From contig CAWHAE010000009.1 of assembly GCA_963827235.1 (NCBI GenBank), positions 416,001 to 480,000 on the forward strand: a DNA stretch of 64,000 nucleotides, written 5' to 3'. Origin of the DNA: an uncultured bacterium. Lineage in GTDB: Bacteria; Chloroflexota; UBA5177; JANWHV01. This document shows, piece after piece, positions 12,696 through 28,146 of this stretch; positions within the stretch are counted from its first letter, which is position 1, and each line of letters opens with the position of its first letter. Made by a program: the position numbers and the translations under genes. The notes beneath the pieces were generated by a model. The model searched no databases, was not told the origin of the DNA, and saw only the letters and a list, made by a program, of their open reading frames with translations.

Positions 12696-13333
12696 CGGGT
12701 TCCGATCTCACCTTCGCCCACCGCTTCCTTCCGGCAGCGCAGCCCGGAGCACCCACGTTGTTGCTGCTGCACGGCACCGGCGGGAACGAGAACGATCTGC
12801 TCGACCTTGGCGCCCTGCTGTGGCCCGGTGCCGGCCGCTTGAGTCCTCGCGGCAAGGTGCTGGAGCAGGGCATGCCGCGTTTCTTCCGCCGGCTCGCCCC
12901 CGGCGTGTTCGACCTCGAAGACCTCCAGCTACGCACCAACGAGCTGGCGGACTTCGTGGTCGCCGCGGCGAGCGCGTATGGCTTCGATCCGGGCGGCGTC
13001 GTGGCCGCCGGCTACTCGAACGGCGCCAACGTAGCCGCCGAACTGATCCTGAGCCACCCGGGCTTGCTGGCCGGCGCCGTGCTGTTCCACGCGCTGCTGC
13101 CGAGAAAGCCCGCGGAGCTGCCCGATCTGGCCGGCCTGCCGGTGTTCCTTAGCGGCGGCCAAGCCGATCCCCTGATCGCGCCCGAGCAGACGAAGCAGCT
13201 GGCAGCCGTGCTCCAGGACGCCGGTGCCGCGGTAACACTGCATTGGGTGCCGGGCGGGCATAGACTCGGCCCCGCCGAGGCGGCGACCGCCCGCGATTGG
13301 CTGGCGACATCGATAGCTGCCGGCAGCAGCTGA
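12692..13333 (+). CDS. Alpha/beta hydrolase (MhqD-like carboxylesterase)
   Basis: LHGTGG.E, SPRG, RFFRR, GYSNGA, GGH; overlaps the dioxygenase stop (ATGA). Confidence 0.88.
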   Translation: MTGSDLTFAHRFLPAAQPGAPTLLLLHGTGGNENDLLDLGALLWPGAGRLSPRGKVLEQGMPRFFRRLAPGVFDLEDLQLRTNELADFVVAAASAYGFDPGGVVAAGYSNGANVAAELILSHPGLLAGAVLFHALLPRKPAELPDLAGLPVFLSGGQADPLIAPEQTKQLAAVLQDAGAAVTLHWVPGGHRLGPAEAATARDWLATSIAAGSS

Positions 13334-13405
13334 GCGGAACGGTCTGGGCGCCGGGACGGTGGAGTATGCTGAAGGCGTCGTTCTCACTCCACCAGAGCAT
13401 CAGGA

Positions 13406-14972
13406 ATGGATGGGCCGCCAATGGCTGAGCAGGTGTCGCGGGGCAGGATTTCCACCGACGGTCCGTGGTTCAAGGACGGCATGGGCAGAACCTTGCTGCT
13501 GCGCGGCGTCAATCTCGGCGGCAGCAGCAAGGTGCCGTACAAGCCGGACGGCGCCACGCACCTGCGAGAAGGCTTCTACGACCATCGCGACGTCTCGTTC
13601 GTAGGCAGGCCGTTTCCCCTGCGGGAAGCAGACGAGCACCTCGAGCGTCTGCGCGCCTGGGGGCTCACGTTCCTGCGCCTGCTCGTGCCATGGGAAGCCG
13701 TGGAGCACGCCGGGCCCGGAATGTACGACGACGAGTACCTCGCCTATCTCCGCGCCGTGGTCGAGCGCGCGGGCCACCATGGGATCGACGTCTTCATCGA
13801 TCCCCACCAGGATGTCTGGAGCCGGTGGACGGGCGGAGACGGCGCCCCCGGCTGGACCCTGGAAGCAGTGGGCTTCGATCTCTCCAAGCTGGCCGTGACC
13901 GGTGCCGCTTTCACCCATCAGACGGTAGGAGACCCCTTCCCGCGCATGATCTGGTCCAGCAACTACGCCCGCCTGGGCTGCGCCACCATGTTTACCCTGT
14001 TCCTGGCAGGTAATGACGTGGCGCCTCGCACCACGATCGAAGGCGTGCCGGTGCAGGACTACCTGCAGAGTCACTTCGTCACGGCCATGGTGCGAGTGGC
14101 GCGGGCGCTCGAGGGGCTGGACAACGTGGCAGGCTACGACACGCTCAACGAGCCGCGTGCCGGCTACCTCGGCGTGCCCGACCTTGCCAGCCTGCGGGGC
14201 GCCAACTCCCGACTACGCGGTCCCATGCCCACGCCGTTCCAGGGCATGCTGCTGGGCTCCGGCTACCCGCAAGAAGTGGCCGTGTGGGACCACGGCGTCG
14301 AAGGCTACCACCAGGTGGGCACGACGCTGATGAACCCCGATGGCGTGCCGGTGTGGCGCCAGGGCTTCCGCGACGTCTGGCGCGAAAACGGCGTGTGGGA
14401 GGGCGGCAGGCTGCTGCAGCCACACTACTTCGCCCACGCCGCGGACTTTACCGACGGCTACATGGCGCCTTTCGTGGCGCGCTTCCGCGAAGCGATACGC
14501 GAGGTCGATCCGGAGGCCCTCATCTTCGTGGAAGGCGCCCCGGGTGGGAGGCACGTGCGATTCGCGCCCGATCAGGCCGGGGGCATCGTCAACGCCACGC
14601 ACTGGTACGACGTGCTGACCCTGTATACCAAGTCCTACCGGCTCGATCTCACGGAGGACTGGGAGACGAAACAGCCCGTACGCGGGCGCGAGGCCGTGCG
14701 GAAGTCCTATGCGGCTCAGCTCCGCGCCCTCCGGGAGGCCGGCGTGAGCGAGATGGGCGGCGCGCCCACGCTAATCGGTGAGTTCGGCCTGCCGTTCGAC
14801 CTCGACGACGGCGCTGCCTACCGCAGCGGCGACTTCTCCTCGCAGGTGGCCGCCCTCGACGCCTACGCCGCTGCCATGGACGCGAATCTGCTGAGCTTCA
14901 CGCTCTGGAACTATACGGCCGACAATAGCAACGAGCACGGGGATCAGTGGTGCGGCGAGGATCTCTCACTAT
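13406..14972 (+). CDS. GH5 endoglycoceramidase/sterylglucosidase-like glycoside hydrolase, 5' part (interrupted)
   Basis: RGVNL, WEAVEH.GPG.YD, DPHQDVWSR..GG.GAP, NEP (acid/base), GEFG (nucleophile), WNY...GD.W.GEDLS; family resemblance stops abruptly at 14972. Confidence 0.88.
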
Positions 14973-15000
14973 TGCAGTGTGGAGTGACTAGCGATATACT
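14972..15000 (+). promoter_or_regulatory. Putative integrase promoter overlapping attL
   Basis: TTGCAG(14972-14977)-N17-TATACT(14995-15000). Confidence 0.5.
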
Positions 15001-15005
15001 TCCTT

Positions 15006-16668
15006 ATGAGGGCAGAGAGATGGCCCCAAGGAAGGCAGGCACCAGTGGCAGCACCAGCACGACGGCCCGTCCAGCGTCCAGTCAGCGCAACCCGTGCGGC
15101 GGGATATCTCCGGGTATCCACAACGAAGCAAGGCGACGGGTTCAGCCCGGAATTGCAGGAAGAGGCAATCACCACCTACGCGGCGGATCATGGCCTAGAT
15201 CTTGTGCTTGTTGAACGTGACTTTGAGAGTGGACACCACAACGAACGGCCTGGTTATCAGCGCCTGCTAGGCATGATCCGGAGTGGCTACGTCGGCACGA
15301 TCATCGTGCACCAGCTTGACCGGTTGGGAGAGACAACAGCGGAACTGATGGTACGCCTGGAAGAGATGGAGAAGCTAGGCGTCAAGCTGATCTCGGTCAA
15401 GGAAGGCAAGCAAGAGCCCGGTATCCTGTTCGACGTGCTTGGGAGCATGGCCAAAGAATACTCGCGACAGCTAGGGAAGAAGGGCGCGACCGGCATTGGA
15501 GATGATGAGCGCGGCAAGGCGTGCACCACGGTGTTGTGCCGACAGGCTACAAGCTGGTGTACCCTGAGCGGATCGGAAGCGGGCGCTACCAGAGTGGCGT
15601 AATGACATCTGATGACACAGCACCATTTGTCCGCGAACTGTTCAGAAGTACGCGGACGGCATGTCACAGCGCTACTTGGCGCGATGGGCGAATGAGCCAG
15701 GACACCCGGCAGCACCGAAGAGTGCGGCATGGTCACGTGACACCCTGGCGCACCTGTTGCGCAACCGCACCTATCTTGGCGTAGTCGAGTACAACAAGCG
15801 GGCTAAAGGCCGGTTCAGTCAGTGCAACCCTGAAACGGATCGCTTCGTGGTCAAGGCCGATCACGAACCATTGATCGACCAAGCGCTGTTCGACCGCGTG
15901 CAAGCCCGGATAGCGGACGCGACCGAACGGGGCTTCCATGGGAAGAGAGACGAACGTCCGGAACCGCTGCTAGCGGGTGTCCTGCGGTGCGGATCGTGCG
16001 ACAGCAAGATGACCGTGCTGCGATGTGCGGATGAAGCGAAGCGGCAACCGCTGTACCTGTGGCGGGGAACGCGAGTGGTGAGATGACGTGCGAGACGTCC
16101 GCGATCACCATGGACGTAGCAGACAGGCCGTGCTGAACCAGATCCGCCGCGTGCGGTTCGTAGACAACTGGACGCGAGTACGCTTCAGCCGGTCGTGAGT
16201 GAACCCGATCCCCGTGACTTGCTGACCAAGCAGCTTGCCGCCGCACGGGCCAAGATGGAGAAGCTAAGCAGCGGCTTCATGCTGATGGTTGCCGAAGCGA
16301 GCGACGCGGAGAAGCAAGCCTACCGGAAGATCGCCAATGCGCTGAGCGATGAGATCATGGCACTGGAGCAAGCACTACGCGATCTGCCCAGCGCGAAGCG
16401 TGCGACAGAAGACGTCGAGGCATGGCGTGCAGAGTTCAGCAGGGTCGACCTAGGCGGGCTGATCGACGGGCTGCTAGCGACCGATCAGCGGGGCAAGCTG
16501 CGGCACGGGATCGCGGGAGTGGTTGACCAGCCACGATTGATGATCGCTTCCCGGAGAAGCGTTCGACGTGGGCACACGCTAGCGTCACGTGGTCACCCAA
16601 CCTTCAGGCTTTGGTTGACGCGGGTAGCGCTGTCCTGGCAGACGACGATCCGGGACCGGAGCGGTTGA
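15006..16668 (+). pseudogene. Large serine recombinase (integrase), in at least 4 frameshifted pieces
   Basis: GYLRVST..Q catalytic Ser, SG...RPG, LDRLG; recombinase domain P.GY, W....L..LLRN..YLG, HEPLID...F.RVQ; LLAGVLRCGSC zinc ribbon; coiled coil 16195-16668. Frameshifts may be sequencing errors. Confidence 0.88.
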
Positions 16669-16746
16669 CCAAGCAACAACGCCGCTCCGTGGCAATGCGC
16701 AAGTACCGCACGAAGGTGCGTGGACAGCAATAGCACCGTCATTCTG

Positions 16747-16782
16747 AAGCCCCTGTGTCCCACGATGCAGGGGCTTTCTTAT
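16747..16782 (+). terminator. Intrinsic terminator after the recombinase
   Basis: AAGCCCCTG...CAGGGGCTT stem followed by TCTTAT. Confidence 0.55.
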
Positions 16783-16968
16783 GCCCTGAAAAGGCTCGCG
16801 ATCACAAACCATTTTGACTTTTCGCTACGTCACTACGTCAGGTACCATACGTAGGTGAGAGCCTTCCGGACGTGGTACCACACCTCTGATACCCTTTTCC
16901 CATTTTCCGCTAGACGTGCAACAATGGCGTTATGGAAATTGCACAGAGGATTTAATTAGGGGGAGGGA

Positions 16969-17223
16969 ATGGACAGCCCAACGTTCTTGACCAAGAACAA
17001 GCGCGACTCCGGGCCGCGACGACCGCTGATGATCGGTATTCACGTCTCAGCGACCGAATACGAGGTGATCTTGCGCGATGCGGACGCGGCTGGCTTGTCG
17101 ATGGCAGCGTACGCACGACAGTTGATGCTGAAGAGGGGGCGGCTAGGGAGTGCTAGACAGGCAAGCGCACCGCGACCGGTTGATCCTGATGTTGCCCGGC
17201 GTGAGATCACCGAACTGTCGTGA
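16969..17223 (+). CDS. Ribbon-helix-helix protein (MobC/NikA-like)
   Basis: R..MIGIHVS..EYE.I...A.AAGLSMAAYAR; RBS GGGAGG. Confidence 0.65.
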   Translation: MDSPTFLTKNKRDSGPRRPLMIGIHVSATEYEVILRDADAAGLSMAAYARQLMLKRGRLGSARQASAPRPVDPDVARREITELS

Positions 17224-17802
17224 TTGGCGTTCGTTGCGGTGAAGCGGTCCGAAGCAAGCGCGGATCCGTATTTAGATCGAAAATCGGCAGTTCAGGGAGA
17301 AGGGTAGACCGGTCCAAACGAAGCCCGCATATCCTCGGGGGCCACGCTGATGGCGCCGGAATGAGAAAGACCCGGATCGGCACGACCAATGCCAATCGGG
17401 GTCTGAAGGGAAGGGGGCTACTCCCCTGCCATGTTCAACCACAAGTGTACACCAGTTGACGCGAGTTCGCGAGAGCCTTATCAGACTTCACTGTGGCAAA
17501 CCTTTCGGCCCGCATGGCCAATGCCGGTAACTTTCGATGGCATGCTCCTGGCCATTCCCGATGTCCTCCGCGATGGCGGGCCGATGCGTTACCCACGTCG
17601 CCTACGCCATCTGCGATAGCAGCGTGATCGCGCTAGGCGAAAGACACTCCGGCTGGGTCAATGAGCGCAGCAGCAGGAATGCGGTGCGTGCGCTGTGGTC
17701 AATTCGTAGGAAAGGCGTGCCACTGCGACCGCGACTGTTACGGGAATCTCAGGGATTCTGGAACAGCCGATCTTGGGGTTTCCCGCGCAAGAGCCGATCC
17801 CC

Positions 17803-18045
17803 ATGAGCAGCTATGCCAAGAAGCAGGAAGCGAGAATCGCTGCGCTGGAGGCCGCGAATGCCGCGCTCTTGCATGACAAGAACGAGTTTCAGCGCGAAGT
17901 CGAAGATCTTCGGCATGAGAATGACCGTTATCGCTTCCAGTTGGCGGGCGATGCACATGGTGAAGCGGAGCGCGAAAAGGTTGTGTGTGCGGCGATCATC
18001 GTGTCGCGCGGGATCAAGTGCTCTCTTCGGCATAGCGGCTCGTAA
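17803..18045 (+). CDS. Hypothetical coiled-coil protein (element-borne)
   Basis: Heptad-like RIAALEAANAAL...EVEDLRHEN. Confidence 0.4.
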   Translation: MSSYAKKQEARIAALEAANAALLHDKNEFQREVEDLRHENDRYRFQLAGDAHGEAEREKVVCAAIIVSRGIKCSLRHSGS

Positions 18046-18124
18046 CGATAGTGGGCATGAATTTGGCAAGCGCGTTTTCTCCCGATAGCACACCCGTTCA
18101 TGTGCGTTTGGGCGACTTCGCGGA

Positions 18125-18664
18125 ATGAACGGGTTTGAAGCGCGAAGACATCGGGCTGGCAGTGAAGGTGGCACACTATCGCGAGCACGGACGCGATTAG
18201 TGTTCACACTGCCGCCTGGCCAAGGGGGGCTGTCCAACGACCGAGATTTACTCAGCGGAGGCGACGGCACAGTGCGCGATGCCGATGGCCTCGAGCTCTC
18301 CAAGGAAAAGGACAAGGCGCGTCATGCCAAGAAACGGGAGAAGCGGCGGGAGCAGCAGCAGATGATGGAATCGGTGCTGACGGAGCAGTTTGCGGTACTG
18401 GAGGAGGTGGCGGAGATCGCAAAGCTGGGGTGTCCTGCCTGTCGAGGTCAACTTCTTGGAACCGGCTATGCCTGCGAGTCATGCGGTACGCGATTGATGG
18501 TCGATCAAATTATGGTCGACACTGATCGCGGTGCGAGGGGGTTATTAACCGAGTTGGTGAAAAACCTCCCTACTCAGAAAGATCTAATTAGCACCACCGA
18601 GTCGGTGAGAAGCCACCAGCGGCATGGCATCATGCATATACCCCAGCGAAGGGCAGCGCCATAA
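18125..18664 (+). CDS. Hypothetical zinc-ribbon protein (probably frameshifted)
   Basis: CPAC...CESCG motif after a basic helix. Confidence 0.4.
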   Translation: MNGFEARRHRAGSEGGTLSRARTRLVFTLPPGQGGLSNDRDLLSGGDGTVRDADGLELSKEKDKARHAKKREKRREQQQMMESVLTEQFAVLEEVAEIAKLGCPACRGQLLGTGYACESCGTRLMVDQIMVDTDRGARGLLTELVKNLPTQKDLISTTESVRSHQRHGIMHIPQRRAAP

Positions 18665-21600
18665 TGCACGCAGGCCTGCGCGACGTACTGCCGCGATGCC
18701 GTTGACGTGCAGGTTGGCGCTCAATGACCGGCGTGGCTGAGGGTGTACCCAGGTGTCTCAGAGGGGGGGCACGCAAATGGATTGCCTCAACGACGTCTGG
18801 AGCGATGGGTGGCAGCAGCGGAACGGGAAGCTGTAATATAAGAAACCTGGTGCTTAGGGCAACGGCCTAAAATATGGTTGCGCCACGGAAACGTCCGAAA
18901 AATCGATTCCAGCCGCGTGCTAATGAGGCACCCGCGCGTCCATGGCGTTGTCGCTCCATCGTACGGACCACGCTAATCCCGTTCGCATCACGGCAACTTC
19001 GTATAGGCAACACGAAGCGGAGGTGAAGCGGAGTGAAGACGAAGCAGGGAAGAGAGCCCGGAACGCCATGCCCAGCGCAAAGCAGGAAACATGCAGGAAG
19101 CTCACAGGGCGCACATGAGCGCAATCGCAGGCTGGCCGCTGGCAAGCGAAGCCACCGCGCCGAAAGCGTGTCCTGGGATGCAAATCGGGGTGCAGATACC
19201 GGCACTGTGGTAACTCCGGCATACATAGTGGAAAAAATTTGGTTAATGGCTGAGCCTGGTGGGCCAGCGTCGGCCGGCGGAAGGGCAAACTGACACTTTT
19301 CAGCGAGTGCGGCGCCAGATATTTGCAGGCAGTGGAGCAGAGGTGCCAAGGTATGAGCAGTGATTCTTTGAATAATAGAGATTCACAAGCCCGTGAGTGT
19401 ACTGCGGGGCCGGGGGCGGCGAAGCGCGCAAAAGAAGCAGCGGTGCGGGTGGTGGAGGCCGCACCAGCCCGGTTGCCCGGACGCGGCGGTCGCGTCGCAG
19501 CAGCTGGATGGGGAGCAGACCAAGCGCGGCGGGCGTAACCCGTCCACTAGGAGTCGAAAAGGCGGCGTTTTAGTCAGATGCCTGCCGCGCCGCTGGTCGC
19601 GGAAATTTTTTTTTTTTTTTTTTTTATGCTGCTGTGACCAGAATTATTTGTTCATCTGTCGCGGAGAGAGAGAGCGAACAACGTAAGAAAATTAGGAAGG
19701 CGCTAGCCGCACTGGAGCGGCAGGGCATGGTGGTTGATACCAGGCGGAATGTCCGCAGTCGTAGTGAGAAGCGGCTGATTCAGGGCCAAAGGCTGAGGCA
19801 AGGGAAGATCCGGGTTGATGGAAGCGAAAAGGCGTTACGGTTCGTGCAGGAGCGGGGGCAGGAAGGAAAAATGATGGTTAGTCGGAGGAAGTTTGATGTT
19901 CGGCGGATTGCGCTCGTGCGCAAAAGCCATCGTCCGGTCAACAGCGCAAATTACTGTGGTCAAATCTAAAGTTTTTTTAACGCTGCAACAGGAAATCACG
20001 GAGCTTGTTTCGAGATGCTATTCAAGAGGCGTTGAGCCAGCGCACGCCATAGCGCCGTTGCGGGGGACATAGCGCCTTTGGCTGGCTTATGGCAGCTGAG
20101 CGGAGGCGGGCAGCGGTACTGAGAAAATTGAATGTCTTTATTTTTTCCAGAAGGCTTCACAGGTATATGACGGATGCGGTCAGGGTCGCGCTAAATTTTT
20201 TTTAAATTCAGCCGGGGGAACGATCCAGGCGCCATTTCCGCCATGCGCGCCTACATTCACAACACCTTCAATTTCTGCCGCAGCCGGTATACGCGGAGAC
20301 GGTCGCGAAGTAATCAAAGGCGAATTGGCGATCAGACAGTTCGGCGAACGGTCAAACACCAGCCCAGAATTGCCAATGCGAAAGCATCTCGGGCGCCGTT
20401 ATTTGTAAGAAAAATATGGTGGATGCTGAGTGTGGCATCTCGCCACTACGGTTATGGCTATCTCAGGAATTGCCGCCACGCATGAACAAAAAGCAGGCGA
20501 ACCGTTCGCCGGTCTGACGCGGAGATCATCCGCAGCGGGTTGCGGCAAGCCGGGCACACCGGCGCGGCGCCCCGTGCCTGTCGCGCTGCTGGCTATGGCT
20601 TGGTCAGCAGGCCCTCAGCCAGCGTCCGACTTCCCTGAGGGCGAACGGCGCCCAACGACACCTGCCTGCGTCGGCGTACGGACGTGGGCAAGGATGCCGA
20701 TACGGTGCCGGGGCTATGGCGGGCACGTCACAGTATATGCTCGGGCGCGGGAGTGAATGCAGGCAAGGCCTGAGCGCGGCGTTCCCCGGACGGCGGCATA
20801 ATTTGGCAGCTGCCTATGGCGCACCGCCAAATCGGAACGAAAGCAAGAATTGCTACCAGAACCCTATCTGGTGCCCGGGGTGGCTTGTCATCTTCCTTGC
20901 AGCCGCGTGTCCAAGAGTGCGCCAGAGACCTTCAGCCAGGCTGTGTCGCGGTTGTGCGCAGGAGGGTGAGCCATGAGCGCCACAGCACAACTGGTCGCAC
21001 GGAGGAGCCCCGGAGCCCCGTATCCCCGGCCTCAGCGCCCAACATTGCGGGAGGAGGCCTCGCGGGGCCTCATGGCCAATTCAACGCAGGGATGCAGCAG
21101 CGTACATCCAGGTTTTCCATCTCCCTCCTGTGGCCACATTCTCCGGAGCCAGCGAGCTGGCCGTGGCCGGGGATCGTCGCTACCTCCTTCGCGGGGCTGC
21201 TGACTCAGGGCCAACGATTCGTCGGGATACCGGGCTGAACAGCGAGGTGGTAACGCTGTCGGCGGTCGCGGGCGGTGTAAACAACCTCTACGTTGTTGCC
21301 TTCACACCCGCGAAGAGGCAATGACACGATCTCCGTAGGCGCGCTGGGATCACTGCTCCGCTGCTGTCGGTAGGCGCCCCGGCTGGGTGCTTTTCAGCTA
21401 TGGAACAGCCCGCTCTGCATGGCGAATGGCATCGTTGTGGCTGTAAAGGTACTCGCGAACGGCAGCGGCGCACCAGAACTGGCGCAGGTTTGCACTTTTA
21501 GCGTAGCGTGAGGGGGCAGGCGATGGCAGGGCAAAGAGAGTCTTTAACGTGTGACGGCGTAAGGCGCCTTATGGCGCGCGCAAAGCGAAATAAATAGGGC

Positions 21601-22259
21601 ATTTCCGCAGGGGGCCACTCGGAATCGTCGGCCATAACGCGTAGTAGCGTTCTGGGCTTGCTGGCTGATGATTCGCTCGGCGCCCTGCCGGCAGTACGGC
21701 GTTGCCGGAGCATACCGCCGTGGTCGCTTACTGCCGGCACAACACCTCACGGTGAACTCAGCCATAGGAGCGCGAACTGTGCAGATAGGTACACTAGCGG
21801 ATCGCTTCTCGACAGGCGTGGTTTGGATTCTTGCACAGGACGGAACGGCGTAGTTAGCGGGCTGAAGGATAAATGAGGGTTAGGGCGATGGCAAGCAAAA
21901 CCACATTCCCACGGCCTTGACATCGGGCGGCGGCTTCATGGGAAGTGGACAAAGCTCTACGCCGCACCAGAAACGAATCCCACACGGCGGACGGTGCAAT
22001 CTGTGTGGGCGTAGGTTTTCAACGGCGCAGCTGCGAGCGTCGTGTTGGGTGTCACCGCCCCGACAGATGGGCGTTGTTCGTGCCAGCGGGCTTAATCCTA
22101 ACATGGAGTTTTTGCCTTACGGGGTGGCAGTATGAACTGGGTGTTGCGGTAGCCGGAACTTCCTCGTTAACGGCAGCGGGGTACCTAGGGCACCACTGAC
22201 GGTCACGCTGACCACTGGTCTAGCGAGCGCTGAAGGGAAAGGGCAGGACGATGCAGAGA

Positions 22260-24260
22260 ACTTGATCCGGTGCAACAGCCTGTGAATATCGTCGTTGACG
22301 ATAGACGGGCTGGATGAGGCGCTGCGCAAGGCCGACGATATTGGAAGAGGTGTTGACGCGCCTAGGAAGGGTCGCGGCAGCGTTTCAGCGAACTTGGGCG
22401 CCTTCGGCGGTGGTAGCGGTGGTGGTGCTGGGGCGGTGGTCAGCAGGCTGTACAAGGCGTCAAGCCTTCAGGAGGAAAGGCGAGCGTTGCACAGCCCACG
22501 CGAGCGCCCGGCAGTATTCAGCGCCACAAAACGCATGTACTTATGGCAAACATCGCCAGTAGCTCGGGAGGTCCGGGCGGCTGGCTGGCGGCGGGCTTCC
22601 TGGCCCCTGGCCCTGGTGCTGCGGGCGGTGACGAATGGGCGGCGCTGGGCATCATCTCATCCGCTGGCGGCGGCGGGCGCGGCGGGCGCGGCGGCGGCGC
22701 GGGGGGATTCGGCGGCACGATCGACCAGGGCGGAGGTCCGGGCTGGGGTGCTGGCGGCGGTCAGGGAGGCGGTGCTGGCGGCGGTGTCAGATTCGGTAGC
22801 TTTCGGTGCGCCCGGCCCGAACGCGGGAACCTTCGGCCTAAAGCTGGAACAGTTTGGCGTCCGTGGCGACAGGCAGCAAGCTGCCCTGGTTGGGCTGAGC
22901 GGTGCCATTGCGCGACAGCTACTTACGAGCGGCGCACTCAGTGCCGTGAACGGCAGTCGGGGCCGTCGGGGCGACCATAGGCTATGCGAATTCCATGGTC
23001 GCGACTCAGGCACAGGCCAAAGAGTCGATGCAGGCTGCGCTGGGCGGTCGTGGAAGAGATAATGGGACCGACCTTCAGACCGGGTTGATCGCGCAATGGC
23101 TAACGAGTTCAAGCAGTCCGGGACGCTGACGGAGCAGCTTGCCCAGCAGTTGGGCCTCGGTGGCGTGCAAGCAAAGCAGGCGATGGGTATTGAGCCGACC
23201 ATGCTGGAATTGCAGCAGCGCACCGGGGCGAGCGCGGATACGTTCAGTGACACCATGGCCGCGATGTCCACGAAGGGTGCGATGTCAGCGCAGCAGATCA
23301 GCGATACCTTCGCGGAATTGTTCAGCCAGAGCGCGAATAGCAGTGTCAGCCTGGATGCATTGATCAACTCGATGGTCAGTCTGCAAGCTGCGACCAAAGG
23401 CACGACCATGAACTGGCAGTCTACTGCTCAGATGTCGCAGGCGATGAAAGCGCTAGGGCCGGGCTACAACTTGGGTCAGATGACCAGCCCCGCGATGTCA
23501 GCTACCGGGACGAATGCCTTCCAGCAAGCAGCGGTGATGGGCGTCACGACTGACCAGCTTGCGAAGTGGCAGGGCCTTGTACCTGGTACAGCGGCGAACC
23601 CCGCAGCGCTGTTCAATGCGCAGCTGCAAGCGCTGGCGCGACAGACGAAGGGCAGTCAGGACAGAAACGTATCGAGAGCGAAGAGCTTCTTGCTCCGCTC
23701 GCGGGCCTTGACCTCTCTACACTCTCGCCGCAACAGCAAGAGCGCATGATGATGATGGCGAACAGCGGGCAGTGGTCGAAAGCGTACGGGGCGATCCAGA
23801 CACCCGCGAAGCCGCCTACCGGGATACCGAACATCGCGCCAACCACGACACCGCAGGCGACGGACTGGTGGAACCAGTTCCTCCGCCGGGGCCAGACCTT
23901 CGGGACGCAACCCAATCCGGAAAGCGGGATTAACACCCTGCTAGGGATGTCGAACTGGCCTTCCTGGATGCAGGCGGCGGGCGGCGGCATGGACAAGGCG
24001 ATGGCGGCTCTTGGAAGCCTGCCGATCTTCGGTTCGGCTGGACAGAGGAACCCTTGGGCGTCACCGACCCCGGGACCGAAGACCGGGCCTGTCGCGCCGA
24101 CCTATCCGGATTCAACGTCCATGTGGACGTCGCGGTAAGCGGCGCGGTGACGACGCCATCAGGCCCCGCGAAGGTCACGGTAACGAGCACCGCCACGTCG
24201 CGCACTGGTCCGCCCAAGTCCACGGCGGGCTCCAAGTTCCCCATTCGAGGGACCAAATGA
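22260..24260 (+). pseudogene. Phage tail tape-measure-like protein, fragmented
   Basis: N-terminal IDGLDEALRKA, Gly-rich linker, Ala/Gln/Met/Ser-rich helical repeats (23096-23749) spread over several frames. Confidence 0.5.
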
Positions 24261-24709
24261 CAATTCGCGCGACGCGGTGGCGCTTTCCTGCCGCAGACGC
24301 GCCTTACCCGTGGCGTCGGCAGCGTTTCGGCCCGCTGCCGGTGCCGCATCTCGTGGCGCGCAGGCGTCTTCTGCCTGCCTGCCGCCCCCTTCCCCGCTGC
24401 GGAGGGCCGGTCGCCTCGCACTCGTCCTGCGTGCCGGTCAGGCCCTCCGCCCCGATGCCTCTCTCGGGGCGGGACGGGTACCGCCTTCCCGATTGCCCTT
24501 CTCTTGCGGCAGGACGGCCCCGCGCTATCGTCATGGGCGGCGCCAGACTGCCCTGCCGCCCCCTTTCGCTTTCACCCCTGGGTCGCATGGCCCCCCTCCC
24601 CGCCGTGTGCGTCGGATGCTCTGCGATTCAGCTTCTGCGGCGGGCCTCTGTCGCCCCCCTTCCCACGAGGTGCCACACGGGCCTGCCGCCCCTATCCAAT
24701 GAGGCGACA

Positions 24710-25006
24710 ATGCGCGACGATGCACTGCTCAGCACCGCGCTTGCGATGGCGGTACCGCTAGCCCTGGCAGACTTGCGGCAGCGGGGCGGACCACGCGAAG
24801 GTGACTGGGCACAGGCGCGGGCCTTCGGTGAACGGCTGGCCTGTCACGGCGACGCGCCGCTGTTCCGCACCGATTCGGCAGCGGCACGGCAGGAAGGACG
24901 CGACACCGCCAGCATGTTCAACGGGCTCGTGCGTGCCCTGGCGGTACTGGCGTACTGTCCGGGAGGGGTGACGTTCCAGGGATTGCACTGGGAGGCAACA
25001 GACTAG
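24710..25006 (+). CDS. Hypothetical phage-type protein (98 aa)
   Basis: Intact ORF with RBS GAGG; AVPL...HGD..LF...FN.L.RALAVLAYCPGGVTF.GLHW. Confidence 0.55.
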   Translation: MRDDALLSTALAMAVPLALADLRQRGGPREGDWAQARAFGERLACHGDAPLFRTDSAAARQEGRDTASMFNGLVRALAVLAYCPGGVTFQGLHWEATD

Positions 25007-25872
25007 CGCGCGATTGAAGCGGGAGCGGGGCCCAGGTCTGAAGCTGGGTACGCTGCCTGGAAGGACGGGGAGGCAGTGACATTCGTAGCGAGGACTGCCG
25101 AACTGTCCATCGGCCCCTGTCCCCCTTTGCCGGTTGCGGAGTGGGCGGGGGCCTCTTCACGCTTCCACCGCTGTATCCTCCAGGGGGAAGGACGTCCGCG
25201 CCTTCGCGACGGCGGAGCGGGTGCGTGGTACCACCGTTCTGTCACGAGAAAGGACGACACACGGACGTGCCGCCCAGTGATGGCCCCCTCGCGCCGGCTC
25301 TGTCGGGGTTCGCAGCGTGAGGGGGCCGTTCCGCGCCTGTCCCCGCGCCCTGCCGGTCTCATCCGTATGCTCAAACTGCGGCATGGGATGGGAACGGTAC
25401 CGAACTCTACAGTACCAGAGGCAGCGGAGCATTGGTGCTCCCCGCGCCGTCGCCTTCCCCGGCAGACGATGACGGGTAGGGGTGTACTGTGTGCTGCTGA
25501 CTGTTCGACAGTGCCTAACGTTTGCTGCTGCTGCGAGTAGCGCCGTTGTGTGCGCTCCATCGCTGGCGCCGTCGTGGTAGCGCCGTGCACGGTCGTATGT
25601 GTGTGCCTGCCGTGCGGCGATGACCGCAGTGCAGATCGGCAGCAGTACCTACGCTGCGGTGTTCATTGGATTCGCTGCGTGCTCATGGCGCGTCGCATGG
25701 CGGGGCGCGGAATGCGGGCGTCGTGCTGGCAGGATGCGATAGCCATGTCCTGCGCTCCCGTGCGCCAGACGCGAACGTCGAGAGCCGTAGGGTGCGCTGG
25801 CAAGGGGTGCCGTGCTGGTGCCGTGCTGGACAGATATAGTAAGTCACGCGTCACAGGGTATAGTTCGCTGTA

Positions 25873-26202
25873 TATTCCCCCGATCAGCGCGCGAACCCGT
25901 CGGACATAAACTCGGGCGGCCGGGCCCTCGAAGGCATCGTGCGCCCCTATGCTCTGGCCACGGCCGGCACGCCGCTCTCCATGCACTTCGATCTGGCCAC
26001 GCGCACGTTCGAGCTCAGATTCCGGGCAGACCCCGCGGTGCCCGCTCCGACGGAGATCTTCGTGCCACGGCTCCAGTACGCTGGCGGCTACAGCGTGACC
26101 CTCTCGGAAGGCCGCTACGAGCGGGCCGACGAGCGCCAGGTGCTGATCGTGCACGGACCCGGCGACGAGCGCGAGGTCACGCTGCGTATCGCGCCGTCAT
26201 AG
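25873..26202 (+). CDS. GH5 endoglycoceramidase-like enzyme, 3' part (C-terminal beta-sandwich)
   Basis: YSPDQRANPSDINSGGRALEGIVRPYALATAG.P....FD....F.......APTEIFVP..QY; in frame with the 5' part after excision. Confidence 0.85.
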   Translation, partial: YSPDQRANPSDINSGGRALEGIVRPYALATAGTPLSMHFDLATRTFELRFRADPAVPAPTEIFVPRLQYAGGYSVTLSEGRYERADERQVLIVHGPGDEREVTLRIAPS

Positions 26203-26335
26203 GCGTGGCCACCTCTGGCCAGACGCCCACATCCGGCGCTACCAGCGCCGGGCAACCGATCCCTGTTTCTCGCCCACGACTGCGGGCCAAAGCGCGTTGG
26301 TTCACTGGCTTACATCGGCCGGCGCGGACGGGAGA

Positions 26336-27166
26336 TCAGCGCAGGCCCGAGCGGATGAATGCATCCATCACCTGCCGGCGCAAGAGCAGGTAGATCGCCA
26401 ATACGGGCAGGGAAGCCAGGCTTGCTGCCGCCATCAACGGCCCCCACAGCGTGCCTTGCTCCGACATGAACATCTGCAGTCCCACCTGGACTACCGTCTG
26501 ATCCATCTGGCTGGTGGCAATCAAGGGCCAGAAGTATTCGTTCCAGGACGAGATGAACAGCAGGATGCCGATCGTCGCCAGCCCCGAGCGGATGTTGGGC
26601 ACCACGATCAGCCACAAAATGCTCCAGCTCGAGGTGCCATCCAGCCGCGCCGCTTCGATCAGTTCGAGCGGGATCGACTTCATCTGCAGGCGCAGCAGGA
26701 TCACGGCGAAGGCCGCCGTGAGCTGCGGCACCACGAGGCCGGGTAGCGCGTTGAGCCAGCCCAGCCGCGATACCAGCACGTAGTTCGGGATCATCGTGAC
26801 CTGGATCGGAACGAGCCAGGTGCCGACCAGGAGAAGCAGCAGCACGCGCTCGCCGAAGAAGCGCCAGCGCGCGAAGGCATATGCGGCCGGCAGCGCGATC
26901 AGAATCTGGCCGATCGCTACCAGCACGGACATGGCAAACGTGTTCCAGAGCTGGTGGACCAGTGGAGAGTTGTCCCAGACGAACCGGTAGTTGTCCAGCG
27001 TCAATCCCGAGGGCACCAGCAGGTCGGAGAAGATATCGTTCGCCGGTTTCAGCCCGGTGACGAACATCCAGTAGATGGGAAGCAGGCTCACCACCGAGCC
27101 GGCGATCAGCGCGGCGTGGTGCAGAGCGTGGGGTACGAGCCCGCGCGATGGATGCGCTGAGAGCAT
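26336..27166 (-). CDS. Carbohydrate (CUT1) ABC permease, UgpE-like
   Basis: AAYAFAR, IPLELIEAARLDG (EAA loop), WNEYFWPLI. Confidence 0.9.
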   Translation of the reverse strand: MLSAHPSRGLVPHALHHAALIAGSVVSLLPIYWMFVTGLKPANDIFSDLLVPSGLTLDNYRFVWDNSPLVHQLWNTFAMSVLVAIGQILIALPAAYAFARWRFFGERVLLLLLVGTWLVPIQVTMIPNYVLVSRLGWLNALPGLVVPQLTAAFAVILLRLQMKSIPLELIEAARLDGTSSWSILWLIVVPNIRSGLATIGILLFISSWNEYFWPLIATSQMDQTVVQVGLQMFMSEQGTLWGPLMAAASLASLPVLAIYLLLRRQVMDAFIRSGLR

Positions 27167-27180
27167 GGGCCTATTACTCC

Positions 27181-28146
27181 TCAGGAGTCGTAGAAGGAGA
27201 ACCGCTCGGCCAGCCACATGAAGACCAGCGCGATGACGCCAAAGGCGACGAAGAAGAGCAGCGACGCGGCCGCGCTGTAGCCGATACTGAAGTTCTGGAA
27301 TCCGATCTGCCAGAGCAGGTAGTAGGCGTTAGTGGTGGAGAAGAGGGGACCACCCTGGGTCAGATTGTTGATCAGGGGGAACGTCCACTGGGCCGAGAGC
27401 AGAATGCTCATCATAAGCATGAATAGGATCGTGGGCAGCATCAGCGGCAGCGTGACCCAGCGCGTGGCGGCGAGCCTGTCCGCCCCATCCACTGCGGCCG
27501 CTTCGAAGTAGGTGCGGTCGAGGTTGGTCACTCCCGCCGAGAAGATCAGCAGGCTGAAACCGAATAGCTTCCAGCCGGTAATCACCACGATCGCCCACAG
27601 CGCGGTCGCGGTGTTCCCCAGCCAGTCGATCGGCGACATGCGGAGCGCCCAGTGCAGGGCAAGGTTGGCGACGCCCGTGGTGGGATCCAGCATCCAGCCC
27701 CAGATGATCGACACGACGATCGGCGCCATCAGCAGGGGAGTGAACAGCGCCGTGCGATAGACGTCGCGCCACCGCCCCCGCACCTCGTCCACGAAGAGAG
27801 CGATGATGAGCGGAAGGATCACTGAGAAGGGCAGCAACCCGACGATATAGAGCAGCGTATTGACCAGCGCCTGCTGCATGCCCGGCACGTTGAGCAGGTC
27901 CTGATAGTTTGAAAATCCTACCGGTATCTTCGGGCTCGTAGGCAGGAGATTCCATTGGTAGAAGCTGAGATCCACGGTCTCTGCCAGGGGCCAGTATATC
28001 CAGATACCCACGGCCAGGCATGCCGGCAGCAGGTAGAGATACGGCTCCAGCCTGCCAAGCTTGAGACGCTTGATAGCAGGCCGGATGCCGGTGTGCGCGG
28101 GTGCTGCCAGCGTCACGTGCATCTTTCGCCTGGCCATCGCGTCCAT
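27181..28146 (-). CDS. Carbohydrate (CUT1) ABC permease, UgpA-like
   Basis: VGFSNY, YFEAAAVDGA, LTQGGP. Confidence 0.9.
   Translation of the reverse strand: MDAMARRKMHVTLAAPAHTGIRPAIKRLKLGRLEPYLYLLPACLAVGIWIYWPLAETVDLSFYQWNLLPTSPKIPVGFSNYQDLLNVPGMQQALVNTLLYIVGLLPFSVILPLIIALFVDEVRGRWRDVYRTALFTPLLMAPIVVSIIWGWMLDPTTGVANLALHWALRMSPIDWLGNTATALWAIVVITGWKLFGFSLLIFSAGVTNLDRTYFEAAAVDGADRLAATRWVTLPLMLPTILFMLMMSILLSAQWTFPLINNLTQGGPLFSTTNAYYLLWQIGFQNFSIGYSAAASLLFFVAFGVIALVFMWLAERFSFYDS

What the first reader, a model, noticed from the sequence alone, without database searches (positions are those of the whole stretch)
13406..26202. Glycoside hydrolase gene split by a precisely excisable serine-recombinase element: candidate recombination gene switch
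Seen in sequence: the GH5 ORF loses its family resemblance at ...GEDLSL (14971), and the missing C-terminus (YSPDQ...GGRALEGIVRPY...) resumes at 25873. The junctions read CTCTCAC-TAT-TGCAGTG and TTCGCTG-TAT-ATTCCCC. Deleting 10,901 bp gives CTC TCA CTA TAT TCC CCC, a single uninterrupted 631-aa ORF. A large serine recombinase starts just inside the left junction, and no replacement 3' end is supplied. Established knowledge: LSR elements interrupting sigK (skin) and spsM (SPbeta) in Bacillus act as regulated switches. Inference: this is a new LSR attB inside an endoglycoceramidase-like gene, and possibly an excision-controlled glycolipid hydrolase.
Basis: partly seen in the sequence, partly recalled or inferred. 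Interest (0 to 1): 0.85.

Follow-up and report, generated by a model that had tools for sequence, protein, structure and literature searches.

The report
Mobile element splitting a glycosidase gene
A roughly 11-kb mobile element carrying a serine integrase sits inside a sugar-cleaving enzyme gene, and the uninterrupted gene also occurs in nature; this is an ordinary integration, and the integrase's apparent breaks are probably sequencing errors.

Summary
A GH5 gene is split at 14969/25871. Removing 10,901 bp gives a 631-aa ORF that is colinear with 82 of 82 uninterrupted homologues. A large serine recombinase (LSR) gene starts 34 nt inside the left junction.

Two results change the reading.

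- One public metagenome run (X2) holds a contig that bridges the empty site. It is 100% identical over 50 + 97 flanking nt and differs from the predicted join by two synonymous A>G changes. It shares a 10-bp core with the reconstituted attP.
- The LSR shows 7 single-base frameshifts here, and the element has almost no long ORFs. However, near-identical protein fragments from another public assembly (P0035, P0001, P0004) and X2's short contigs carry indels at different places. They read through several of the window's breaks.

The "dead integrase" is therefore most likely a low-accuracy consensus over an element present in only part of the population.

Verdict: this is a real, polymorphic LSR-element insertion at a new attB. 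Regulated switching is not shown. It is a new member of a known kind, of modest interest.

The parts
13406..14969 (+). GH5 gene, N-terminal 522 codons (catalytic domain). It runs on into the element as a junk tail up to the stop at 15212-15214.
   Evidence: PF00150 E 2.3e-14. 8exd steryl-glucosidase E 2.4e-118. 53-73% identical to 82 homologues with no frame break. X2 contigs are 100% identical at 13897-14047 and 14433-14583.
14963..14989 (.). attL as assembled: B arm, TAT (14970-14972), then the P' arm with a GTGAC motif at 14984-14988.
   Evidence: X2's empty-site contig matches up to 14967 and then departs.
15006..16733 (+). Large serine recombinase gene. In this assembly it is broken by 7 single-base frame changes, near 15478, 15509, 15643, 16057, 16121, 16175 and 16530, with no in-frame stop.
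   Evidence: PF00239, PF07508 and weak PF13408. Frameshift-aware alignment to the intact paralogue (581 aa) and to the same-genus LSR (482 aa). P0035 (98% identical, from another assembly) reads through 15509 and 15643.
16969..17223 (+). Small ribbon-helix-helix (NikA-like) protein gene.
   Evidence: PF21983 at 17017-17136, 30.7 bits, over the cut-off, covering only profile positions 2-41 of 72.
18125..18664 (+). 179-aa ORF with a CxxC...CxxC zinc ribbon.
   Evidence: Weak Pfam zinc-ribbon hits. The nearest Atlas clusters are viral hypothetical proteins at 0.86-0.88, which is a lead only.
19585..19625 (+). 5-bp GC hairpin followed by AAA and a T20 run.
22959..24257 (+). Tape-measure-like gene, aligned part; its N-terminal portion probably starts near 22300. 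Frame changes lie at 23093, 23647 and 24111.
   Evidence: Intact homologues P0002 (589 aa) and P0003 (577 aa) are 42-44% identical. Atlas scores 0.94 to tape-measure / PhageMin_Tail clusters, a lead only. X2 has an extra C after 24111 that restores the frame.
25850..25880 (.). attR as assembled: P arm with a GTCAC motif at 25850-25854, TCGCTG, TAT (25871-25873), then the B' arm.
   Evidence: The 10-bp match to the empty-site allele spans 25864-25872 plus the first base of the P' arm.
25873..26202 (+). GH5 gene, C-terminal 109 codons plus the stop.
   Evidence: PF18564 E 1.5e-22. X2 record 13 is 100% identical over 25873-25969.

Best explanation
A mobile element of about 11 kb, probably prophage-derived, integrated by its own large serine recombinase into a conserved motif (W-x-x-EDLS-L-Y-S) of a cytoplasmic steryl-glucosidase-like GH5 gene. 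This separates the catalytic barrel from its C-terminal beta-sandwich domain. The insertion is polymorphic: the same gene with identical flanks also exists uninterrupted. The natural attB and attP probably share a 10-bp core, TCGCTGTATT. Across the element, and only there, this assembly is a low-accuracy consensus. The likely reason is that few reads carried the insertion. The LSR and cargo genes therefore appear riddled with single-base frameshifts, and both junction cores are slightly garbled (2 nt short plus one substitution at attL, 2 nt long at attR). Shown: the split, the colinearity, the LSR domains, the empty allele, the 10-bp match, and the fact that the indels are not shared between data sources. 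Inferred: that the frameshifts are errors, that the element is sub-stoichiometric in the population, and that it is still mobile. Nothing indicates that the host regulates excision.
For: Split and exact join. None of 82 homologous loci is interrupted. LSR domains with the invariant R-V-S-T catalytic motif. Empty allele: X2 record 13 covers 14918-14967, then 4 letters, then 25873-25969 with 0 other letters. It translates identically to the join, with two synonymous A>G differences. The 10-bp identity between that allele and the reconstituted attP lies exactly at the junction. An identity of 10 bp or more anywhere occurs in only 0.57% of 3,000 random 151-nt pieces. Evidence that the breaks are noise: all 7 LSR breaks are +/-1 with no in-frame stop. 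P0035 (98% identical, from an 11,335-bp contig of another source) reads through the breaks at 15509 and 15643 and has its own break at 15741, where the window is in frame. P0001 and P0004 break at about 23472, 23886 and 24049, whereas the window breaks at 23093, 23647 and 24111. X2's extra C after 24111 restores the C-terminus seen in intact homologues. The flanks are 0 of 449 nt different from X2, while the two X2 contigs inside the element differ by 7 substitutions and 6 gap letters in 296 nt. The rest of the 8-Mb genome is clean. Only 4 merged regions lack any 200-aa open frame over 3 kb; one is this element and one an rRNA operon. 3 of the genome's 4 LSR genes are intact. PMC5499854 (passages read) reports that SPbeta att sites share a 16-bp core and that LSR rejoining needs complementary central dinucleotides.
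Against: No raw reads of the source sample were available, so neither coverage nor error rate was measured. No intact copy of this LSR was found: the 'longer' search gave only the 63% and 54% relatives. The other assembly is broken too, so independent decay of two copies is not excluded. The two junction differences are synonymous third-position transitions and the join is in frame. That is what real alleles look like, and it would be a coincidence under random error. Codon periodicity is nearly flat over 18.7-22.3 and 24.1-25.8 kb, which fits decay or non-coding DNA better than a 0.5% indel rate does. X2's element contigs could belong to a slightly different relative of the element. At 10.9 kb the element is too small for a complete tailed phage, so it may be defective anyway.
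Confidence: 0.6

Rival explanations
1. Dead insertion. The frameshifts are real, the element is a decayed immobile prophage remnant with mutated att cores, and GH5 is permanently truncated in this lineage.
For: There are 7 frame breaks in the LSR and 3 in the tape-measure-like gene. There is almost no long ORF and little codon periodicity over much of the element. No recognisable capsid, portal or terminase was found: 93 fragments gave one PHROG hit at E 0.0054 and 7 mostly weak Pfam hits. The assembled attL and attR cores differ from the 10-bp core by 2-nt indels, which would misplace the central dinucleotide. No intact near-identical LSR was found.
Against: The breaks are not shared with the near-identical copies in other data. 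The GH5 halves show no frame break, and 449 nt of flank are identical to the strain with the empty site, which leaves no time for dozens of indels to accumulate after insertion. All breaks are +/-1 with no nonsense codon.
Confidence: 0.2
2. Regulated gene switch. The host or the element times excision so that a functional GH5 is rebuilt under particular conditions or in a subpopulation, as with SPbeta/spsM, skin/sigK or the comK prophage of Listeria.
For: The insertion is in-frame and exactly reversible in principle. Both the occupied and the empty forms exist with identical flanks. The poor consensus over the element is what a mixed population would give; this is an inference.
Against: Presence and absence together are equally explained by ordinary lysogeny in part of a population. 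No attP junction, no RDF and no regulatory link were found. The 4 same-genus genomes searched have no match to this GH5 with this query, and none of 82 homologues carries an element at this codon, so there is no sign of a conserved arrangement. The known developmental cases are, as recalled, in spore formers or heterocyst formers with terminal cells.
Confidence: 0.12
3. Chimeric assembly: the element is not really inside GH5, and the contig is a mis-join.
For: The element is the only noisy island on a clean contig. In another source a near-identical LSR lies on a separate 11,335-bp contig.
Against: Both junctions fall within one codon of each other in the GH5 frame, with colinear halves. The empty allele shares a 10-bp core with the element's joined ends, which an assembler would not create. 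No second copy of the flanks or of the element exists in the genome.
Confidence: 0.03

Closest known systems
SPbeta prophage / SprA in spsM of Bacillus subtilis (PMC4191935, listing and abstract start only; PMC5499854, passages read)
   Same: An LSR gene sits next to the att site and the element lies inside a coding sequence. Exact excision rebuilds the ORF. attB and attP share a short conserved core around a central dinucleotide (16 bp in SPbeta, probably 10 bp here).
   Different: SPbeta is a 134-kb active phage (size recalled) whose excision is driven by a sporulation-controlled RDF. Here the element is about 11 kb, no RDF or regulation is known, and the host is an uncultured lineage with no evidence of terminal differentiation.
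skin element (SpoIVCA) in sigK, and the gin element in gerE of Bacillus cereus (PMC5025042, PMC5595907; listing and abstract starts only)
   Same: These are small or defective LSR-bearing intervening elements whose only retained role is excision.
   Different: Those interrupt sporulation regulators and are conserved across strains. Here the target is a glycosidase, 0 of 82 homologues are interrupted, and regulation is not shown.
Ordinary LSR temperate phages that integrate into genes (phiC31, Bxb1, A118 in comK; recalled, not read here)
   Same: Unidirectional attP x attB integration into an ORF by a roughly 500-600-aa serine integrase, giving presence/absence polymorphism among strains.
   Different: LSR sequence identity is at most 45% to anything found in genome contigs. 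Only the same-genus relative (63%) and the paralogue in the own genome (54-55%) are closer. The attB is new.
Fungal steryl-beta-glucosidases SglA / Sgl1 (PDB 8exd, 7lpo), the interrupted gene's nearest solved relatives
   Same: GH5 catalytic domain plus C-terminal domain (8exd E 2.4e-118 over residues 13-522). The NEP and GEFG motifs are present (the motif meaning is recalled).
   Different: This is a bacterial gene beside sugar ABC-transporter genes, and its substrate is unknown. It does not reach the NCBIfam endoglycoceramidase I cut-off.

Membership tests
Large serine recombinase (serine integrase) | N-terminal resolvase-type catalytic domain with the nucleophilic serine | tested here: met
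   PF00239 E 1.4e-25. R36-V37-S38-T39 are invariant with two intact relatives.
Large serine recombinase (serine integrase) | Recombinase domain (PF07508) followed by a zinc-ribbon domain and a coiled coil | tested here: inconclusive
   PF07508 is met at E 4.5e-16. PF13408 scores only 19.4 bits against a cut-off of 25.3, and its second half lies beyond a frame break. The region aligns to intact LSRs along their whole length once frames are followed.
Large serine recombinase (serine integrase) | One uninterrupted ORF of about 450-600 aa | tested here: not met
   There are 7 frame changes in this assembly. 2 of the 3 that fall within P0035's span are absent from that near-identical copy, so the failure may be an artefact.
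Large serine recombinase (serine integrase) | attL/attR junctions that share a central dinucleotide or short core; attP with dyad-like arms | tested here: inconclusive
   The assembly shows only a 3-bp TAT. The empty allele and the reconstituted attP share 10 bp at the junction. Ungapped dyad symmetry of attP is 11 of 30 against a random mean of 8.2 (SD 2.5), which is not significant.
Large serine recombinase (serine integrase) | Cognate recombination directionality factor | not tested
   No candidate was identified. Small ORFs are unreliable in this noisy stretch.
Gene-intervening element / phage regulatory switch | The element interrupts a coding sequence and exact removal restores it | tested here: met
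Gene-intervening element / phage regulatory switch | Both occupied and restored forms occur in the same strain | tested here: inconclusive
   One empty-site contig has 147 of 147 identical flank letters in run X2. It comes from a metagenome, so the same clone is not shown, and it differs from the predicted join by 2 synonymous bases.
Gene-intervening element / phage regulatory switch | Excision is conditional (developmental or environmental) and benefits the host through the restored gene | not testable with these tools
   This needs cultures or time-series reads. Only two low-share runs were on offer.
GH5 steryl-glucosidase / endoglycoceramidase-related clade | GH5 catalytic domain with both catalytic glutamates, plus the PF18564 C-terminal domain | tested here: met
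   PF00150 and PF18564. 8exd E 2.4e-118. ...DTLNEP... and ...IGEFG... are present in the N part (their role as acid/base and nucleophile is recalled).
NCBIfam NF051847 endoglycoceramidase I (equivalog) | Whole-protein score over 700 bits | tested here: not met
   47.1 bits for the N part and 53.6 bits for the C part.

The most novel reading that the evidence does not exclude
The element is an active LSR 'intervening element' that flips part of a population of a non-sporulating, uncultured bacterium between GH5-off (integrated) and GH5-on (excised) states. That would be a phage-type regulatory switch on a cytoplasmic steryl/ceramide-glucoside hydrolase. The assembly's noisy island would then be the footprint of that heterogeneity.
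Probability: 0.1. Interest if true: 0.6.

Novelty: new member of a known kind. Interest (0 to 1): 0.3.

Why it matters
Biologically this adds one more LSR attB/attP pair, with a probable 10-bp core, inside a conserved GH5 motif. It is also a natural case where both occupied and empty alleles can be seen. That makes it a reasonable candidate for testing active lysogeny outside Firmicutes, but nothing yet sets it apart from ordinary lysogeny.

Methodologically the case is instructive. A sharply bounded island of +/-1 frameshifts inside an otherwise clean long-contig assembly looked like a decayed pseudogene element. Independent data show that the indels are not shared between sources. Such islands may therefore mark mobile elements carried by only part of the sampled population. 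Calling them dead from a single assembly would be a mistake.

Tried and rejected
- Rfam at E up to 0.1 over 13000-27000 gave 0 matches. The tRNA/tmRNA scan gave 0.
- blastn of 16700-24600 against 50,697 phage records gave no match.
- PHROGs on 93 six-frame fragments gave 1 family at E 0.0054. Pfam on the same 93 gave 7 families, of which only NikA-like (3.6e-7) is credible.
- The relaxase family PF03432 gave 0 matches in the own genome.
- A DNA search with the whole element in 401 genomes of the phylum matched 40 genomes. The only meaningful hit was the LSR N-terminus in one same-genus genome; the rest were short GC-rich repeat hits.
- Viral-contig scans with the LSR N-terminus and with P0004 found no relative.
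- A genome-contig scan with the single LSR protein found none. With a 3-sequence alignment it found 159 relatives; the 80 kept are all at most 45% identical and were not used further.
- The search for homologous proteins in 'longer' mode for 23096-23746 found none.
- tblastn of 219 element fragments against the own genome hit only the LSR paralogue.
- Ungapped dyad symmetry of attP and attB is not above chance. Promoter-like and terminator-like sites are not above shuffles: 2 against 3.1, and 9 against 8.6.
- Run X1 gave 133 pieces, 77 of them under 90% alike, and its joints have sides of only 20-37 nt. I take these as other organisms and GC-rich repeats and draw nothing from them.
- In X2 no contig was reported on the element's ends or as a backward (circular) joint. 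At a depth of about 2, and with a truncated table, this says nothing either way.
- The homopolymer context of the frameshift sites is not evident, so the error type could not be tied to a sequencing platform.
- Structure prediction and complex prediction were not used, as no claim needed them.
- Supplementary files of the papers were not opened.

Full report
**What is in the sequence**

The window is G000:C9:416001-480000, part of an 8.0-Mb, 21-contig genome. An ORF starting at 13406 carries a GH5 catalytic domain (PF00150, E 2.3e-14). It loses all resemblance to its family after ...GEDLSL at 14969-14971 and runs on for 80 junk codons to a stop at 15212-15214. A 109-codon stretch at 25873-26199 carries the GH5 C-terminal domain (PF18564, E 1.5e-22). 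TAT stands at both junctions, at 14970-14972 and 25871-25873, and the identity extends no further on either side.

Deleting 10,901 bp gives a 631-aa ORF. That ORF is gap-free across the junction against intact homologues from two other genomes of the phylum (57-58% identity). In 80 metagenome loci plus those two genomes, the best matches to the N and C parts abut exactly in 78 of 82. In the other four they differ only by where the matched segments end. None of the 82 has an insertion there.

The junction lies in the family's most conserved motif, W-N-x-EDLS-I-F-S-R-DQ.

**What the interrupted gene is**

The nearest solved relatives are fungal steryl-beta-glucosidases: 8exd at E 2.4e-118 and 7lpo at E 5.4e-104. 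Endoglycoceramidase II reaches only about 1e-9. The NCBIfam endoglycoceramidase I equivalog scores 47 and 54 bits against a cut-off of 700.

The N part holds ...DTLNEP... and ...IGEFG.... From memory, these are the GH5 acid/base and nucleophile motifs. The insertion therefore removes the C-terminal domain, not the catalytic residues. The 4 same-genus genomes searched gave no match with this query.

**The insert**

GC content drops from about 0.68 to 0.53-0.62, with positive GC skew. Starting 34 nt inside the left junction there is a large serine recombinase: PF00239 at 1.4e-25, PF07508 at 4.5e-16 and a weak PF13408. Its R-V-S-T catalytic motif is invariant with two intact relatives.

Further right the following features are recognisable:
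- a NikA-like ribbon-helix-helix gene at 17017-17136 (30.7 bits);
- a zinc-ribbon ORF at 18125-18664, whose nearest Atlas clusters are viral (0.86-0.88, a lead only);
- a hairpin followed by a T20 run at 19585-19625;
- a tape-measure-like gene at about 22959-24257. Its intact homologues P0002 and P0003 (589 and 577 aa, 42-44% identical) score 0.94 to tape-measure clusters in the Atlas.

No RNA family, tRNA, relaxase or phage DNA match was found. The element looks prophage-derived. At about 11 kb it is too small to be a complete tailed phage.

**The apparent decay**

The LSR is not one ORF here. I made a frameshift-aware alignment to the intact 581-aa paralogue elsewhere on the same contig and to the 482-aa LSR of a same-genus genome. 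It needs 7 single-base frame changes, near 15478, 15509, 15643, 16057, 16121, 16175 and 16530, and no in-frame stop. The tape-measure-like gene needs three more, at 23093, 23647 and 24111.

The element is one of only four merged regions of the genome without any 200-aa open frame over 3 kb; one of the others is an rRNA operon. It holds three of the 27 longest stretches that lack a 120-aa frame. The other three LSR genes of the genome are intact.

**Why I do not take it at face value**

1. *A second assembly breaks at different places.* The protein libraries hold near-identical fragments from another public assembly.
   - P0035 is 268 aa, 98% identical, and comes from an 11,335-bp contig. It reads straight through the window's breaks at 15509 and 15643, in agreement with the intact paralogues. 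It breaks instead at 15741, where the window is in frame.
   - P0001 and P0004 break near 23472, 23886 and 24049 but not at 23647 or 24111.
   - Apart from one unclear stretch near 15478, none of the frame breaks is shared between the two assemblies.

2. *Short-read contigs restore a frame.* Run X2 consists of short 151-nt contigs. Two of them lie inside the element, at 24051-24200 and 24359-24504. Together they differ from the window by 7 substitutions and 6 gap letters. One difference is an extra C after 24111. When applied, it restores the reading frame into the C-terminus seen in P0004 and in the intact homologue P0002.

3. *The flanks are identical.* The same run is 100% identical to the window over 449 nt of GH5 flank (records 11, 12 and 13). 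If dozens of indels had accumulated neutrally since the insertion, the equally neutral split gene should differ too.

4. *The type of break.* All breaks are +/-1 with no nonsense codon.

The simplest reading is that the window's sequence across the element is a low-accuracy consensus. In an otherwise clean assembly, that suggests few reads carried the insertion. This last step is inference, because no reads of the source sample could be examined.

**The empty site**

X2 record 13 covers 14918-14967, then four letters, then 25873-25969, with no other difference. This is an uninterrupted GH5 allele. It has the same length and translation as the predicted join and differs only by two synonymous A>G changes in the two codons at the junction.

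That allele shares a 10-bp string, TCGCTGTATT, with the attP reconstituted from the element's two ends, exactly at the junction in both. A match of 10 or more anywhere occurs in 0.57% of 3,000 random 151-nt pieces. The window's own join shares only 5 bp with attP, and that match lies elsewhere. None of 82 homologues has this string at the junction.

A 10-bp common core fits LSR sites. SPbeta's sites share 16 bp, and rejoining needs complementary central dinucleotides (PMC5499854, passages read).

Against that core, the assembled attL is 2 nt short with one substitution, and the assembled attR is 2 nt long. I think these are errors at the edges of the noisy island. However, the in-frame, synonymous outcome is also what two real alleles would look like, so this point stays open. 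If the changes are real, the central dinucleotides are out of register and excision would be impaired.

**How it most likely works**

- Shown: an LSR-bearing element sits at a precise position in GH5, and the same gene exists uninterrupted with identical flanks.
- Inferred (confidence about 0.6): the element integrated by attP x attB recombination at the 10-bp core, is carried by part of the population, and may still be mobile.
- Not shown: excision as such, an RDF, or any regulation.

A regulated switch in the manner of spsM, sigK or gerE remains possible, at about 0.1. Those papers were seen only as a listing with abstract starts: PMC4191935, PMC5025042 and PMC5595907. Presence and absence together are what ordinary lysogeny gives. 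There is also no conserved arrangement in relatives.

A truly decayed remnant keeps about 0.2. The reasons are that no intact copy of this LSR was found, that large parts of the element lack codon periodicity, and that the other assembly is broken too. A chimeric join is very unlikely.

**Novelty and score**

LSR elements inside genes are well known. What is new here is the target gene and the att pair, in an uncultured lineage. The LSR's closest relatives outside its genus are at most 45% identical. I rate it a new member of a known kind, with interest 0.3. The more useful lesson is methodological: a sharply bounded island of single-base frameshifts is not proof of a pseudogenised element.

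**Limits**

- Only two low-share runs were on offer.
- Paper supplements were not seen.

Noticed in passing
window 19585-19625: A run of 20 T follows a 5-bp GC hairpin and AAA, in a genome of about 67% GC. It lies in the lowest-GC part of the element (0.53). It may be a strong terminator or a slippage-prone tract.
   Followed up: partly
G000:C9:1119907-1121673 (minus strand; L002): A second, intact 581-aa LSR, 54-55% identical in the catalytic domain, lies on the same contig beside a 430-aa ORF that I did not analyse. It may be another integrated element. Whether it could act on this element's att sites is unknown.
   Followed up: partly
G000:C9:989152-989508 and G000:C12:1391317-1391673: Two LSR recombinase-domain hits have identical scores, each in an 803-aa open frame. 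The LSU rRNA hits on C9 and C20 also have identical scores. These are either duplicated elements and operons, or duplicated haplotypes in the assembly (contamination estimate 9%).
   Followed up: no
window 22576-22786: GGC-rich tandem repeats (periods 3, 9, 12 and 24) lie in the Gly/Ala-rich N-terminal part of the tape-measure-like gene. They attract many spurious matches from other organisms: depth 739 in run X1, and most of the weak hits in the phylum-wide DNA search.
   Followed up: partly
window 14948-14971 and 25873-25890; loci L020-L099, L004, L005: The integration site lies in the most conserved motif of this GH5 clade, W-N-x-EDLS-I-F-S-R-DQ. This gene has L-Y where 82 homologues mostly have I-F. 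None of the 82 carries the 10-bp core.
   Followed up: yes
protein P0035: The near-identical LSR fragment from another public source sits on a contig of 11,335 bp, close to the element's own length. That contig could be an excised circle, a graph bubble or a short integrated piece. It could not be fetched.
   Followed up: no
window 13406-13440 and 26336-27217: The GH5 has no obvious signal peptide and lies next to a sugar ABC-transporter permease gene on the opposite strand. This suggests a cytoplasmic enzyme acting on imported glycosides rather than a secreted glycolipid hydrolase.
   Followed up: no
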